Positions 1 to 3,085 of a stretch of 19,196 bases of DNA are shown in pieces. Source of the stretch: a virus. The notes below the pieces were generated by a model. It saw only the letters and a program-made list of their open reading frames with translations. It was not told where the DNA came from and made no database searches. Position numbers and translations under genes: made by a program. Positions within the stretch are counted from its first letter, which is position 1; each line of letters begins with the position of its first letter. The DNA lies in UHGV virus genome UHGV-1692018. One strand, 5' to 3'.

Positions 1-88
1 GGACTTCGGGGGAAAAACGAGTATTTTTAGTCATCCTGTTTACCTCTTTCTCAGGAAGTTTAGTCTCCAGGATTCCCGGGGCGGTTCA
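1..88 (-). mobile_element. Terminal 88 bp of an IS3-family insertion sequence (IS629/IS1203-like), left inverted repeat plus start of orfA; the rest of the element lies outside the window
   Basis: Bases 1-88 are the exact reverse complement of 19109-19196. Read on the minus strand the segment starts TGAACCGCCCCGGGAATCCTGGAGACTAAAC and contains ATGACTAAAAATACTCGTTTTTCCCCCGAAGTCC, translating to MTKNTRFSPEV, which I recognise as the orfA N-terminus of IS629-type elements. Identity ends abruptly at 88/89. Confidence 0.85.
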
Positions 89-248
89 CATCGCCCTTTG
101 CCTCAAGTTTCATCAATAACTCCATTCGATAAGCTATCTCTGCCTGAATTGACCTATGGCATCTTTTTGCTGATTCGCGGATATGTGAATCAACCTTTTC
201 TGTAAAACGAACCTGACGCGGCTTGATGGAAGATATCTTTTCAGTCAT
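60..248 (-). CDS. Arc/Mnt-family ribbon-helix-helix repressor, C-terminus altered by IS insertion (last ~9 residues IS-encoded)
   Basis: 62-aa ORF with AGGAG 7 nt upstream of the ATG. The stretch RQVRFTEKVDSHIRESAKRCHRSIQAEIAYRMELLMK aligns by eye with P22 Arc FNLRWPREVLDLVRKVAEENGRSVNSEIYQRVMESFKK. Codon 54 spans the phage/IS junction at 88/89, so residues 54-62 (VNRPGNPGD) and the stop are IS-encoded. Confidence 0.7.
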   Translation of the reverse strand: MTEKISSIKPRQVRFTEKVDSHIRESAKRCHRSIQAEIAYRMELLMKLEAKGDVNRPGNPGD

Positions 249-297
249 TATGCACTCCTGTTTTTAAAAAACTCATAATCTCACTTTTTGTAGTTTG

Positions 298-326
298 ATT
301 ATTCACTCACACTCAGCATGAGTCAA
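298..326 (-). promoter_or_regulatory. Candidate sigma70 promoter for the Arc-like gene (-35 TTGACT, 17-bp spacer, -10 AATAAT) overlapping ACTCA-type repeats
   Basis: Minus strand reads TTGACT (321-326), a 17-nt spacer, then AATAAT (298-303). The spacer and -35 overlap the imperfect palindrome ACTCAgcaTGAGT (311-323) and the tandem CACTCACACTCA. Confidence 0.4.
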
Positions 327-347
327 TGAATTTTTTATGGTGAACTA

Positions 348-989
348 ATGAATTTTGACGATCAATTCCCATCAAGAGTATCTCTGGCAAGACAGTCCAG
401 GGGTATGACGCAGGCGCAGTTGTCAAAATTAGCTGGTGTTGTTCAACGTCAAATAGCTGCATACGAGGGTGGTGAGGCTAAACCACGGCTTCGGGTATTG
501 CAGGCATTAGCCAACGCATTAGGTACTACAGCTGAGTGGTTAGCTCTAGGTGAAGGTCAGGGTCCGGGAACAAAAAACGTCATGCCTGACGTTCTGGTAA
601 AGCAAATACCAATCCTCAAACTAGATGAAGTTATGCATTACCTAAACACAGGTGAACATTCATCGTCTAGATTTCATCCGGCAATATACAATGTTGGTGA
701 CTCTGCATTTGCATTGACTATTGAAGGTGAAGCTATGACTACAAGTTCAGGTATTAGCTTTCCCAGAGGATCGGTTGTCACGTTCAGCCCTCTAGTAAAA
801 GCTAAAAGCAAAGATTATGTAATAGCATCATTGGATAAAGAGCAAATATTGAGCTTCAAACAGGTTTACATTGGTGAAATAGAGACAAACCTAGTATCCC
901 TAAACCCAATGTATCCTAATATTCTTGTTAGAAATGAAGATGTTAGTATTTTGGCAACCGCAGTTTACCTTGAAATCCCGTTGCTTTGA
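348..989 (+). CDS. Lambda-CI-like repressor: N-terminal XRE-type HTH plus C-terminal S24 (LexA/CI) peptidase-like domain with apparent Ser-to-Ala at the catalytic position
   Basis: 213 aa. N-terminus SRVSLARQSRGMTQAQLSKLAGVVQRQIAAYEGG resembles the 434/lambda repressor HTH. C-terminus DSAFALTIEGEAMTTSSGISFPRG ... SFKQVYIGE ... LNPMYPNI aligns with lambda CI [26 protein letters not shown] ... FKKLIRDSG ... LNPQYP; the GNSM motif appears as GEAM. Confidence 0.8.
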   Translation: MNFDDQFPSRVSLARQSRGMTQAQLSKLAGVVQRQIAAYEGGEAKPRLRVLQALANALGTTAEWLALGEGQGPGTKNVMPDVLVKQIPILKLDEVMHYLNTGEHSSSRFHPAIYNVGDSAFALTIEGEAMTTSSGISFPRGSVVTFSPLVKAKSKDYVIASLDKEQILSFKQVYIGEIETNLVSLNPMYPNILVRNEDVSILATAVYLEIPLL

Positions 990-1049
990 TATCCTTTAGG
1001 AAGCGACACATTATCATCTGGTATCCTGCTCAAAACTAAGGAGGTTGGT

Positions 1050-1238
1050 GTGAAGAAAAAATTTGTAAACGTTGCAAAGTGCGCAATTTTTATATTTTTT
1101 ATGACCTTTTACGGATTTAGTGCCGGAGAAGGTTTCGATCGTGATGCCAATGCATTCAGTTTCTTTTGTCTGTCTATAGTGGTCATAATTGTATGGGTGG
1201 AATTAAAGCAAACATTGTTTCATGTGCTAAGGAAATAA
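1050..1238 (+). CDS. Small hydrophobic protein (62 aa, two predicted hydrophobic segments), function unknown; candidate superinfection-exclusion or membrane-acting protein
   Basis: GTG start preceded by AAGGAGG at about 6 nt. Sequence MKKKFVNVAKCAIFIFFMTFYGFSA...FSFFCLSIVVIIVWV has two hydrophobic stretches. Sits in an AT-rich stretch directly downstream of the CI-like gene on the same strand. Confidence 0.5.
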   Translation: MKKKFVNVAKCAIFIFFMTFYGFSAGEGFDRDANAFSFFCLSIVVIIVWVELKQTLFHVLRK

Positions 1239-1255
1239 CCATCCATGGCATTTAG

Positions 1256-3085
1256 TCACTGCTGTGTTGCCTCAGTGGCAAGCAGCGGTCTGATGGCATT
1301 TGCAGCGTTACTTAATGCTCTTTCATAGGCTGGCGTTCCTGCTTTGGTGTTTGCCAAACGTAAGAGAGCATTCCTTGCTGCTTTTGACTCATACAAGCGC
1401 ATCATTGCACCGAAACCAGCCTCAAGCCCCATTGATACGCCAAGAGTCGCAGTTGCGCCAATCGTCCTTATCCTGTTGGCTTGCGATTGTCCTGTCTGTG
1501 TTACTACATTTGCGGCGTCCGACCTTGCTGTTTGCTGTAGAACTTCATGAAGAGCATCAAGCTCTTTCATGTGTCTCCCACTGAATATCGTGTTATAGAT
1601 CTGACCGTCAGATTGCGACTTCAACTTATTTAACTCGGTAAGAAATTTTGTTGGCGAGTCTCCTGCTTTTTCTGCAATCTTGCTGATATAAGCAGCACGC
1701 ATAGCGTTCTTTCCATCTTCACTAAGAGCTGGCCATATCCTCTTAATATCTGATGGTTTTCTGCTGAATACAACACTGTTTATTAGCTCTGGAGTAAACT
1801 CTTTTTTAGCTTTGTTGAGATTATTCGCAATCCTTTTATTAAGAACCTTATTGAAGACGTTAGAGTAGTCAGAGTTTGCCTTGACGTATCTGGCGGCCTC
1901 TCCAGCCCCCAAATACCGCGCTGCGTTATTCCTCAAATCTGCCCCCATTGCCCTCTCCACGGTATCAGTTGCGGCTTTCGCGCTATTAGGAAAAACCATG
2001 GCATCTCCCTGAATACTTTCCCTCAAGGCTGACCGCAACTCTCTCAATAGACCAAAATCTATATCTGGTTTAGCAAGTTCTTCTCGCAAATCGGATAACC
2101 CGCGAATCAAATCCTTATTTGCCACTTTCCCAAGCCTATTAGCTCTGGTAAGTACGTTGTCGATAACCTTAATAGATTTTGATGTGTCAACTGGTGTGTC
2201 TCCCATTTTGGCTGTAATGTCTTCAATAACGCTTCCGGCCGAATCCTTCCTTGACTTCAGAGAACCATACAGATCGTCAACAACAACTGATGGGCTATAT
2301 TCACCATATTTCTCAAGCTGTTTTTTAACTAGCTGACTTCTTTTTGCATACTGCTCAGCTCGCTTTGAGCCTGTCCCGAGCAAAGCCCCCTCGGCATCCT
2401 GAGTTAGGCCGCGAGTGAAAGCATTTTTCGGCGGGATAACATCAGATGTCATTGGTGTCACGCCCATCGATTCTGAGGTGGCAATTTTTTTCGCTACTTC
2501 TGGCGCGATATCGCCTTTTATAGCCGTTATTCCACGCCCTATTCCCTTTGCTGCTGCGGAAAGAACACCCTGAGCAGCAAGGTTAACTCCGGCGTTTATG
2601 GCTGCATTTTGCGCGAAATCGCCTTTCTGGTTTGCGGCTTCTGCCAGTGATCCAATAGCCATGCTTCCTGCAGTTCCAACTCCTGGAACTAAATACCCGC
2701 CAATTGTTTCTCCAGCTTGCGCATAAGGGTCTGTTGGTCGATCTACTGGACGATAGACATCGTCCAAAACCTTGTGACCACCAAGCCCCTGGCTGATTGC
2801 ATTAATCAGACTTGCGCCACCCTGCAATACGTCAAATGGTATGTTTACCAGACCACGACCAGCCTGTTCTGCAATTTGCCCTGCACTTTGACCACCAGTG
2901 AGCCAATCGCCAGCTTGTTGCATCAATGATGGTTCTTCCTGTGTTGGTGCATTATTGGCCTGATTAACTGTTTGTTGCTGAACAGCCTGACCAGCAAAAT
3001 ACTCATCAATGGCGGTGCCAATATCTTCGGTGCTCGTACCATCAGGAAAGGTAAATGTCTTACCGTTTGCAGTTACTTTCATCAT
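1256..3085 (-). CDS. Ejection (internal virion) protein, P22 gp16-like
   Basis: 609 aa, Ala/Gly/Gln-rich, last gene of the virion operon in the position of P22 gene 16, whose size I recall as 609 aa. Start overlaps the upstream gene's stop. Confidence 0.8.

What the first reader, a model, noticed from the sequence alone, without database searches (positions are those of the whole stretch)
348..989. CI-type repressor with an apparently inactive S24 autoprotease, sitting in the immI (Mnt) position of a P22-like phage
The protein has the lambda CI architecture (XRE HTH plus S24 domain), but the conserved G-[DN]-S-M nucleophile motif reads G-E-A-M (IEGEAMTT), so Ala replaces the catalytic Ser while the downstream Lys (SFKQ) appears retained. 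In lambda CI and LexA, loss of this Ser abolishes RecA-stimulated self-cleavage. The gene is transcribed opposite to the late operon, between the gp16-like gene and a divergent Arc-like gene, which is where P22 carries mnt. A CI-fold repressor substituting for Mnt, and unable to respond to SOS, would be an unusual variant of the immI switch. With the small hydrophobic ORF downstream it may form a two-gene repressor/effector cassette.
Basis: partly seen in the sequence, partly recalled or inferred. Interest (0 to 1): 0.75.

Follow-up and report, generated by a model that had tools for sequence, protein, structure and literature searches.

The report
Protease-dead CI-type repressor guarding antirepressor operon
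This gene encodes a lambda-CI-shaped repressor that has lost its self-cleaving active site; in every relative examined it sits back to back with a small Arc-like gene and phage antirepressor genes, so it is most likely an SOS-insensitive stand-in for the Mnt repressor of phage P22, which is a neat but not revolutionary variant of a classic switch.

Summary
ORF 348-989 (+) encodes a 213-aa XRE-HTH + Peptidase_S24 protein. Sequence, profile and structure alignments all place Ala129 (GCT, 732-734) where lambda CI has Ser149. Lys171 is kept. The Ala-Gly cleavage site is also absent.

It is not a sequencing error. The same protein is found in phage JEP4 and in 28 complete E. coli genomes.

In the 18 related loci examined, all but one (no ribbon-helix-helix (RHH) gene called) have the gene divergent from a 56-67-aa RHH gene followed by antirepressor-type genes. 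The backbones are P22-like, lambda-like and others. A consensus-like sigma-70 promoter faces that operon. These phages keep a separate, catalytically intact C2/CI. The protein is therefore best read as a dedicated, SOS-blind maintenance repressor of a portable immI-like module.

- Intact relatives also carry a true Mnt homologue next to the tailspike gene.
- The small hydrophobic ORF travels with gp16, not with this gene.
- Loss of the Ser is common in this superfamily (24 of 127 representatives).
- Ser and Ala alternate within this clade.
- In this window an IS629 has cut off the antirepressor genes.

No binding or cleavage was tested. Verdict: a new variant of a known kind, of moderate interest.

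The parts
1..88 (-). Left end of an IS629-type (IS3 family) insertion sequence. It comprises the terminal inverted repeat TGAACCGCCCCGGGAATCC... and the start of orfA (MTKNTRFSPEV...). It replaces the last 4 codons of the RHH gene and separates it from whatever lay downstream.
   Evidence: window 1-98 matches IS629 copies in many Stx phages at 96-99%; the matches to JEP4 and to E. coli prophages start only at base 88; the C-terminus is ...GDVNRPGNPGD instead of ...GDVVIQ.
60..248 (-). Small ribbon-helix-helix (Arc-like) gene, the first gene of the divergent operon. The native part is 89-248; the last 9 residues are IS-encoded.
   Evidence: Pfam ParD_like E 5.7e-4 and Arc E 0.014, both below cut-off. 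PHROG 10182 E 5e-35. A 56-67-aa homologue holds the same position in 17 of 18 loci. A profile built without Arc hits only RHH proteins at the top, weakly (CopG 0.03, AmrZ 0.29, Arc 0.5-0.7).
249..347 (.). 99-bp divergent regulatory region between the RHH gene and the CI-like gene.
   Evidence: The length (89-101 bp) and layout are conserved in 15 loci.
298..326 (-). Sigma-70 promoter-like site facing the RHH/antirepressor operon: TTGACT (326-321), 17-nt spacer, AATAAT (303-298).
   Evidence: 10 of 12 consensus matches. A TTGAC[TA]-17-nt-(-10-like hexamer) is present at the same place in all 15 loci aligned.
271..276 (.). ACTCAT, one of two inverted copies of the conserved hexamer ATGAGT. It lies about +20 in the leader of the leftward transcript. 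Candidate operator element (inference).
   Evidence: ATGAGT is found at about the same place in about 11 of 15 loci (three others have ATGAAC), 37-39 or 47 bp from the other copy.
318..323 (.). ATGAGT, the second inverted copy, overlapping the -35 hexamer of the leftward promoter. Candidate operator element (inference).
   Evidence: The recognition helix VVQRQIAAYE of the CI-like protein is almost invariant across the family.
348..989 (+). CI-type repressor gene, 213 aa (identical in JEP4; the RefSeq protein WP_001008290.1 annotated at the matching position in E. coli prophages corresponds to it).
387..542 (+). XRE/434-type helix-turn-helix DNA-binding domain (residues 14-65).
   Evidence: Pfam HTH_3 E 9e-13. 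434 repressor N-domain E 4e-6. Five helices in the model.
669..965 (+). S24 (LexA/CI C-terminal) domain, residues 108-206. It is catalytically degenerate: Ala129 (GCT, 732-734) replaces the Ser nucleophile, and Lys171 (AAA, 858-860) is retained.
603..653 (+). Linker segment (residues 86-102, QIPILKLDEVMHYLNTG) that corresponds to the cleavage-site region of lambda CI and LexA. It has no Ala-Gly, and residues 92-101 are modelled as a helix.
986..1014 (+). Promoter-like site (TTGATA-17-CATTAT) upstream of the small ORF.
   Evidence: a consensus match only.
1050..1238 (+). 62-aa ORF with two hydrophobic segments and a GTG start after AAGGAGG. It is a separate moron, not part of the repressor module.
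   Evidence: PHROG 21338 E 5e-45. It co-occurs with the gp16 3' flank in phiv205-1 and UPF_BP1, which lack the CI-like gene.
1256..3085 (-). P22 gp16-type DNA ejection protein gene, the last gene of the late-operon block before the 'ant moron'.
   Evidence: PHROG 770 E 4e-261. RefSeq annotations in relatives read 'P22-gp16 family phage DNA ejection protein'.

Best explanation
The gene encodes the maintenance repressor of a portable 'secondary immunity' (immI-like) module. The protein is a lambda-CI-fold repressor: a 434-type HTH domain joined to an S24 domain. The S24 domain has lost the Ser nucleophile and the Ala-Gly scissile bond, so it now serves only as an oligomerisation scaffold and cannot answer RecA/SOS.

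In the lysogen the protein is proposed to bind the 99-bp divergent region and shut the strong leftward promoter (TTGACT-17-AATAAT). In intact phages that promoter drives a small Arc-like RHH gene followed by one to three antirepressor-type genes (P22_AR, Bro-N, Rha, KilA-N/ANT). The protein thus plays the part that Mnt plays for Pant in P22, and the RHH protein plays the Arc part. Prophage induction itself is left to the separate, catalytically intact C2/CI of immC.

Shown here: the architecture, the degenerate active site, the conserved synteny, the conserved promoter, and the separate intact C2 in relatives. Inferred: DNA binding at this region, repression rather than activation, expression in the lysogen, and non-cleavage. 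In this particular window the target operon has been severed by IS629 just before the RHH stop codon.
For: Architecture and active site: (Ala129 falls on lambda Ser149, Lys171 on Lys192, no Ala-Gly; CTD rmsd 1.8 A to 1f39).

Internal control: JEP4's own C2 and the immC repressors of two related prophages have AG + G[DN]SM + FKK.

Synteny: the CI-like gene is divergent from a 56-67-aa RHH ORF plus antirepressor-domain genes in 17 of 18 loci, from Escherichia, Salmonella, Leclercia, Yersinia, Klebsiella, Tatumella, Providencia, Xenorhabdus and Morganella, in P22-like, lambda-like and other backbones. In the Salmonella locus L008 the antirepressor gene is there but no RHH gene was called.

Promoter: a near-consensus sigma-70 promoter faces the operon in 15 of 15 loci. 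A promoter this close to consensus needs a repressor rather than an activator.

The recognition helix is almost invariant, and two inverted ATGAGT elements are conserved, one over the -35.

The CTD is still under purifying selection (pN 0.16-0.20 against pS about 0.8). Ser and Ala nevertheless alternate within the clade: P0003 with Ser nests among Ala-bearing sequences. The domain is therefore needed, but its nucleophile is not.

Villafane et al. 2008 (PMC2629481) had already remarked that the E. coli HS 'ant moron' has putative antirepressor genes but must control them differently from P22.
Against: No experiment was run; binding, repression, expression in lysogens and non-cleavage are all inferred. 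No convincing rightward promoter for the CI-like gene was found in the 99-bp region. No clean dyad-symmetric operator could be defined; the ATGAGT copies are 37-47 bp apart, and one coincides with the -35, so its conservation may be due to the promoter alone. RHH assignment of the small ORF is weak (below Pfam cut-offs; profile E 0.03), and a single-sequence AlphaFold model gave one long helix. Intact relatives also carry a Mnt homologue whose role relative to this module is unknown. In this window the antirepressor genes are not visible.
Confidence: 0.65

Rival explanations
1. The protein is a transcriptional activator, not a repressor. It would belong to a 'transcription factor + divergent small protein' induction module of the kind described by Silpe et al. 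2023, and the dead S24 domain would sense some non-SOS signal and switch the antirepressor operon on.
For: The divergent arrangement with a small ORF resembles those modules (paper listed, PMC10432266; only the start of its abstract, as listed there, was seen). The retained, purifyingly selected CTD could be a sensor. No operator was proven.
Against: The target promoter is already near consensus (10 of 12 matches, 17-nt spacer) in all 15 loci, which is typical of repressed rather than activator-dependent promoters. The small ORF is an RHH DNA-binding-type protein followed by classical antirepressor domains, not a lone small anti-repressor peptide.
Confidence: 0.1
2. The protein still responds to SOS. 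It would self-cleave using another residue, or be cleaved in trans by an active S24 protein (LexA, C2) at a non-canonical site.
For: Lys171 is retained, and Thr/Ser residues follow the motif (AMTTSSG). Intermolecular cleavage of LexA and CI is known (own knowledge: Kim and Little 1993).
Against: All alignments place Ala in the nucleophile column, with G127 and M130 as invariant anchors. Lambda also has Thr at +2, so those residues are not substitutes. There is no Ala-Gly or Cys-Gly in the linker, and that segment is modelled as a helix. The Ser/Ala flip within the clade argues that the position is unconstrained.
Confidence: 0.05
3. It is the prophage's primary immunity repressor (the C2/CI equivalent), displaced to the late region.
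For: JEP4's annotators called it 'repressor protein C2'. PHROG 4 'transcriptional repressor' matches at E 7.5e-30.
Against: JEP4 and related prophages carry a canonical immC with C2/CI, cro and cII/c1 elsewhere. The gene's neighbours are antirepressor genes, not cro or replication genes, in all 18 loci.
Confidence: 0.03
4. In this particular prophage the gene is a relic. With the antirepressor operon severed by IS629 it has nothing left to control and persists only by recent descent. This does not exclude the main explanation for the intact module.
For: IS629 end at 1-88. Independent damage to the same operon in E. coli HS (IS3-family insertion) and E272 (deletion).
Against: The ORF is intact and 100% identical in protein sequence to that of the viable phage JEP4. 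The rest of the operon may still lie beyond the IS, outside the window.
Confidence: 0.15

Closest known systems
Phage P22 immI region (mnt / arc-ant, Pant/Pmnt)
   Same: Same place in a P22-like genome, between the gene 16 and gene 9 homologues (the 'ant moron'). Same logic: a maintenance repressor gene transcribed against the late operon, divergent from a strong promoter that reads a small RHH gene and then antirepressor gene(s), some with P22_AR_N/P22_AR_C domains.
   Different: The maintenance repressor is an HTH + S24 protein, not the RHH tetramer Mnt. The operon often holds two or three antirepressor-type genes (Rha, Bro-N, KilA-N/ANT). The module also occurs outside P22-like phages. A Mnt homologue is present in addition, next to the tailspike gene. 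An antisense RNA like sar was not looked for.
Lambda CI / P22 C2 / 434 CI (XRE HTH + S24 autocleaving prophage repressors)
   Same: Same two-domain architecture and fold. Closest solved structures are lambda CI (E 3e-23 with the family profile; CTD rmsd 1.8 A) and the 434 repressor N-domain.
   Different: Ala replaces the Ser nucleophile and there is no Ala-Gly site. The gene is not in immC, is not paired with cro, and co-exists with a canonical C2/CI.
Non-cleavable prophage repressors worked by antirepressors (Gifsy GfoR/GtgR, 186 CI/Tum, N15 CB/AntC)
   Same: Repressors that cannot be inactivated by RecA-stimulated self-cleavage, in regulatory circuits that involve antirepressors (Lemire et al. 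2011, PMC3121763).
   Different: There the non-cleavable protein is the primary repressor and the target of the antirepressor, whose gene is held by LexA. Here the non-cleavable protein is proposed to hold the antirepressor genes themselves. Gifsy repressors are short (136 aa) and lack the S24 domain altogether.
Fels-1 FsoA antirepressor under control of the Fels-1 CI-like repressor
   Same: An antirepressor gene controlled by a phage CI-type repressor rather than by LexA (abstract of PMC3121763).
   Different: The Fels-1 repressor is the cleavable primary repressor. Here a second, dedicated and protease-dead repressor does the job.

Membership tests
Peptidase family S24 (LexA-type self-cleaving proteins) | S24 beta-fold C-terminal domain | tested here: met
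   PF00717 E 1.3e-12 at residues 108-206. The model superposes on lambda CI CTD 1f39 (rmsd 1.8 A, TM 0.84), LexA and UmuD'.
Peptidase family S24 (LexA-type self-cleaving proteins) | Ser nucleophile in the G-[DNE]-S-M motif | tested here: not met
   Ala129 (GCT) occupies the column in the phmmer, profile and MSA alignments.
Peptidase family S24 (LexA-type self-cleaving proteins) | General-base Lys (lambda K192 / LexA K156) | tested here: met
   Lys171 aligns with lambda K192.
Peptidase family S24 (LexA-type self-cleaving proteins) | Ala-Gly (or Cys-Gly) scissile bond in the linker | tested here: not met
   The query has KLDEVMHYL where lambda has SHVQAGMF and JEP4 C2 has SWVSAGCW. Within the close family only P0016 keeps A-G.
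Peptidase family S24 (LexA-type self-cleaving proteins) | RecA*-stimulated or alkaline self-cleavage | not testable with these tools
   Needs a biochemical assay.
Lambda CI / P22 C2-type primary prophage repressor | N-terminal HTH domain plus C-terminal oligomerisation domain | tested here: met
Lambda CI / P22 C2-type primary prophage repressor | Located in immC, divergent from cro, next to early/replication genes, and the sole maintenance repressor | tested here: not met
   The gene lies between gp16 and the antirepressor genes. A separate C2/cro/c1 is present in JEP4 and relatives.
P22-type immI (secondary immunity) region | Lies between the gene 16 and gene 9 homologues of a P22-like late operon | tested here: met
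   gp16 homologue at 1256-3085. The tailspike gene lies on the far side in intact relatives. It is not visible in the window because of IS629.
P22-type immI (secondary immunity) region | Antirepressor gene downstream of a small RHH (Arc) gene, read from a strong promoter | tested here: met
   Met in relatives: P22_AR_N/C, Bro-N, Rha and KilA-N+ANT proteins after a 56-67-aa RHH ORF. The promoter is conserved. In the window only the RHH gene and the promoter remain.
P22-type immI (secondary immunity) region | Maintenance repressor is Mnt (RHH, Arc/Mnt family) | tested here: not met
   The divergent repressor is HTH + S24. A Mnt-like gene exists elsewhere in relatives, but not as the divergent partner.
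P22-type immI (secondary immunity) region | Small first gene is an Arc-family protein | tested here: inconclusive
   Pfam Arc E 0.014 and ParD_like 5.7e-4, both below the gathering scores. A profile without Arc gives CopG 0.03 and Arc 0.5-0.7. The single-sequence model was uninformative.
P22-type immI (secondary immunity) region | Repressor binds an operator overlapping the ant promoter; antisense sar RNA | not tested
   Only conserved motifs were seen. The sar-equivalent region lies beyond the IS.

The most novel reading that the evidence does not exclude
The CI-like/RHH/antirepressor unit is a self-contained, horizontally mobile 'anti-immunity cassette' whose coupling to SOS is evolutionarily switchable. 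Members with Ser + Lys + Ala-Gly (such as P0016) would be RecA-cleavable and would turn DNA damage into antirepressor release that can induce any co-resident prophage. Members like this one are locked off in the lysogen and fire only from an incoming genome. Alternatively, the conserved dead S24 domain has been re-used to sense a different signal or partner.
Probability: 0.15. Interest if true: 0.6.

Novelty: new variant of a known kind. Interest (0 to 1): 0.4.

Why it matters
P22 immI is a textbook secondary-immunity switch. In 2008 the E. coli HS-type 'ant moron' was noted to control its antirepressor genes 'differently from P22', and no regulator was named. The present analysis names a candidate regulator and shows that it belongs to a conserved module spread across Enterobacterales prophages of different virion types. 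It also gives a natural example of an S24 domain kept for structure after its protease function was lost.

Antirepressors can induce heterologous prophages, including Stx phages in the same hosts. Knowing what holds these genes off, and that this hold is SOS-blind, therefore bears on prophage cross-talk. The finding is incremental: no new principle is involved, and Ser-less S24 repressors are common.

Tried and rejected
- Sequencing error or misalignment was rejected: the GCT codon is the same in JEP4 and E. coli HS, the gene occurs at 98.6-99.7% nucleotide identity in 28 complete E. coli genomes, and all alignments are gap-free around G-E-A-M.
- A LexA box in the intergenic region: none was seen by eye (CTGT-N8-AACT only); there was no tool test.
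- A dyad-symmetric operator: the repeat finder and manual comparison of 15 loci gave only two distant inverted ATGAGT elements and locus-specific short palindromes, with no consistent 14-20-bp operator.
- A rightward promoter for the CI-like gene: none passed the scan.
The single-sequence model gave one long helix, which is uninformative for an obligate dimer.
- dN/dS: synonymous sites are saturated (pS about 0.8), so only pN/pS could be used.
- PADLOC and NCBIfam gave generic HTH hits only. Rfam found no family in the window.
- Literature: no paper was found on WP_001008290 or on the JEP4 gene's function.
- The 'two-gene cassette' with ORF 1050-1238 was rejected.
Full report
**1. What is in the sequence**

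ORF 348-989 on the + strand starts with ATG and encodes 213 residues. Pfam finds an XRE-type helix-turn-helix at residues 14-65 (HTH_3, E 9e-13) and a Peptidase_S24 domain at residues 108-206 (E 1.3e-12).

A phmmer search of solved structures puts the lambda repressor first. It aligns the query 'LTIEGEAMTTSSG..ISFPRG' without gaps to lambda 'LEVEGNSMT[AT]PTGSK[PT]SFPDG', and 'LSFKQV' to 'FTFKKL'. Ala129 therefore sits on lambda Ser149, and Lys171 on lambda Lys192.

A profile of 23 family members hits full-length lambda repressor at E 3e-23, and UmuD' and LexA more weakly. An AlphaFold model built on that alignment has mean pLDDT 86.5. Its C-terminal domain superposes on lambda CI 1f39 at 1.8 A rmsd, TM 0.84.

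The Ala codon is GCT at 732-734. Ser-bearing relatives have TCT or TCA there, so a single first-position change separates the two states.

**2. More than the Ser is gone**

The linker segment of lambda CI, P22-type C2 and LexA carries the scissile Ala-Gly. At that position the query reads Q-I-P-I-L-K-L-D-E-V-M-H-Y-L, and residues 92-101 are modelled as a helix.

An internal control is available. Phage JEP4 encodes a protein identical to the window's. It also has a canonical immC with C2, cro and c1. That C2 reads 'ISWVSAGCW', 'KGDSMT', 'TFKK', a complete catalytic set. So do the immC repressors of two related prophages. In LexA and lambda CI, loss of the Ser abolishes self-cleavage (own knowledge of the S119A and S149A work; Lemire et al., PMC3121763, restate the Lys/Ser dyad and Ala-Gly rule). 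I therefore rate non-cleavage as very likely, though it is untested.

**3. Not an error, and not unique**

The gene is present at 98.6-99.7% nucleotide identity in 28 of 5,426 complete E. coli genomes, always once and always chromosomal. It is also present in the isolated Lederbergvirus JEP4.

Homologues from the 5.8-billion-protein set show the following:
- Ala in the window protein and in P0001, P0002 (92% identical), P0004 (76%) and P0005 (72%).
- Ser in P0003 (81%) and in all members at 41-49% identity.
- A 'DPAM' form with Arg for the Lys in P0022.

In a neighbour-joining tree of the C-terminal domain, Ser-bearing P0003 nests inside the Ala clade. P0003 shares the Ala-Gly-less linker. The nucleophile column is therefore flipping within a clade that had already lost the cleavage site.

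The domain as a whole remains under purifying selection. Non-synonymous difference is 0.16-0.20 where synonymous sites are saturated at about 0.8. The simplest reading is that the domain is kept for folding and oligomerisation while the protease function is dispensable.

Across 127 representatives of the wider XRE-S24 group the nucleophile column holds Ser 91 times, Ala 24 times and another residue 12 times. The Lys column holds Lys 91 times and Arg 30 times. Protease-dead members are thus common, which lowers the surprise.

**4. Context: a conserved module**

In intact relatives, oriented as in the window, the order is:
- gp16 (-)
- a variable small gene (+)
- the CI-like gene (+)
- a 57-aa ORF (-)
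- a Rha/P22AR_C protein (-)
- a KilA-like protein (-)
- a 73-aa ORF (-)
- an Arc-family/Mnt-like gene (+)
- the tailspike gene (-)

This order is seen in JEP4, E. coli HS and UTAK-8, and a Leclercia P22-like prophage has a close variant of it.

I examined 18 loci in all. In 17 of them the CI-like gene is divergent from a 56-67-aa ORF followed by genes with antirepressor-type domains: P22_AR_N, P22_AR_C, Bro-N, Phage_pRha, or KilA-N + ANT. In the Salmonella locus L008 the divergent antirepressor gene is present but no small ORF was called.

The backbones differ:
- P22-like podophages.
- Lambda-like siphophages, where the unit sits inside the tail gene cluster (L005, L012).
- A site next to an integrase (L008).
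- A Providencia phage, next to a tail fibre gene (L025).

One prophage shows the module together with its own Phage_CI_repr + S24 repressor, cro and N (L010). This family is therefore a dedicated regulator of an antirepressor operon, carried on a portable module, and not a primary immunity repressor.

Statistical support is weak, however: Pfam Arc E 0.014 and ParD_like 5.7e-4, and a profile without Arc gives CopG 0.03.

**5. The regulatory region**

The 99-bp spacer (249-347) contains a near-consensus sigma-70 promoter on the minus strand. It reads TTGACT (326-321), a 17-nt spacer, then AATAAT (303-298), and it faces the RHH gene. The same TTGAC[TA]-17-nt-(-10-like hexamer) is present at the same position in all 15 loci aligned, although the spacer sequence is free to vary.

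The start codon of the CI-like gene lies only 21 bp beyond the -35. Its own promoter was not found by the scan. It must overlap the leftward promoter or lie in the RHH gene, which recalls the overlapping Pant/Pmnt pair of P22 (own knowledge).

The recognition helix V-V-Q-R-Q-I-A-A-Y-E is almost invariant across the family. The only DNA elements conserved across the family, apart from ribosome-binding sites, are two inverted copies of ATGAGT. One overlaps the -35 (318-323). The other lies about 20 nt into the leader (271-276). They are 37-39 bp or 47 bp apart, a difference of about one helical turn. I offer these as candidate operator elements, but this is inference only.

**6. Mechanism proposed**

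The proposed sequence of events is as follows.
- In the lysogen, the CI-like protein binds the divergent region and holds the strong antirepressor promoter off. Its S24 domain acts as an oligomerisation module. This is the job Mnt does in P22.
- On infection of a naive cell, the promoter fires.
- The antirepressors act on resident or own repressors.
- The RHH protein then shuts the operon down, like Arc.

Because the protein cannot self-cleave, DNA damage does not release the antirepressors. Induction is left to the intact C2.

The architecture, the degenerate site, the synteny, the promoter and the separate C2 are shown. Binding, direction of regulation, expression and non-cleavage are inferred. 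Confidence is about 0.65.

**7. This window in particular**

Bases 1-88 are the left end of an IS629-type element, comprising the inverted repeat and the orfA start on the minus strand. Window 1-98 matches IS629 copies in many Stx phages, while the prophage matches begin at base 88.

The insertion replaces the last four codons of the RHH gene (...GDVVIQ becomes ...GDVNRPGNPGD). It removes the antirepressor genes from view. The same operon carries an IS3-family insertion in E. coli HS. In strain E272 the module borders a deletion reaching the replication gene. Damage to this operon in resident prophages seems recurrent.

**8.

(a) 'Substituting for Mnt'. Intact relatives keep an Arc-family/Mnt-like gene, divergent from the tailspike gene. 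The CI-like protein is therefore the regulator of an additional module rather than a replacement within the P22 module.

(b) The small hydrophobic ORF (1050-1238). It has its own AAGGAGG and a promoter-like site and matches PHROG 21338. It is found with the gp16 3' flank in phiv205-1 and UPF_BP1, which have arc/ant-type regions and no CI-like gene. Other carriers of the CI-like gene have other genes there. It is a separate moron.

(c) The Ser loss is a common fate in this superfamily.

**9. Comparison with the literature**

Villafane et al. 2008 (PMC2629481) drew the 'ant morons' of P22-like phages, including prophage HS-1. They stated that the lack of arc, despite putative antirepressor genes, implies a control mechanism different from P22. 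No regulator was proposed.

I found no paper on this protein. Non-cleavable repressors and antirepressor circuits are well known (Gifsy, 186, N15). An antirepressor under a CI-type repressor is also known (Fels-1 FsoA), all per PMC3121763.

The present case is a new variant of a known kind: an immI-type switch whose maintenance repressor is a protease-dead CI-fold protein.

**10. Verdict**

Interest is moderate at 0.4: a tidy, testable example of non-orthologous replacement and of catalytic decay in an S24 domain, but not a new principle.

Noticed in passing
window 1-88 (and the RHH gene 60-248): An IS629-type left end (inverted repeat plus orfA start, minus strand) is inserted 4 codons before the natural stop of the RHH gene. 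This gives a chimeric C-terminus and cuts off the antirepressor genes.
   Followed up: partly
L003 4398-5545 (E. coli HS); L002 7902-7927 (E. coli E272): The same antirepressor operon is independently damaged elsewhere. E. coli HS has an IS3-family insertion in the KilA-like gene. In E272 a deletion joins the 3' end of the CI-like gene to a replication gene. This suggests the operon is often lost in resident prophages.
   Followed up: no
window 1050-1238 (+), promoter-like site 986-1014: A 62-aa ORF with two hydrophobic segments and a GTG start after AAGGAGG (PHROG 21338, unknown function). It is left unannotated in JEP4, phiv205-1 and UPF_BP1, although the DNA is 99% identical there. It occupies the place of sieA in P22 and could be a membrane moron.
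   Followed up: partly
L001 3970-4227; L003 3928-4215; L004 4948-5235; L011 3953-4198: In intact relatives an Arc-family/Mnt-like gene lies divergent from the tailspike gene and convergent with the antirepressor operon. Its target is unknown.
   Followed up: no
proteins P0012-P0021 (alignment A1 columns 265-344): The more distant, Ser-bearing members of the family carry a 50-70-residue C-terminal extension with a heptad-like pattern (...RLSALENRLDEIMHLIR...). This extension is absent from the window's clade.
   Followed up: no
proteins P0023, P0024, P0050, P0114 and others: The representative search returned very long proteins (400-5,640 aa) containing 5-11 tandem copies of an XRE-type HTH closely related to this one.
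   Followed up: no
alignment A1 /, linker column block: Many Ser- and Lys-bearing family members keep the P1 Ala but replace the P1' Gly (VQAR, VQSR, QASM, QAFG, QAAN). Only P0016 has A-G. Loss of the canonical cleavage site may therefore be family-wide and older than the Ser-to-Ala change.
   Followed up: partly
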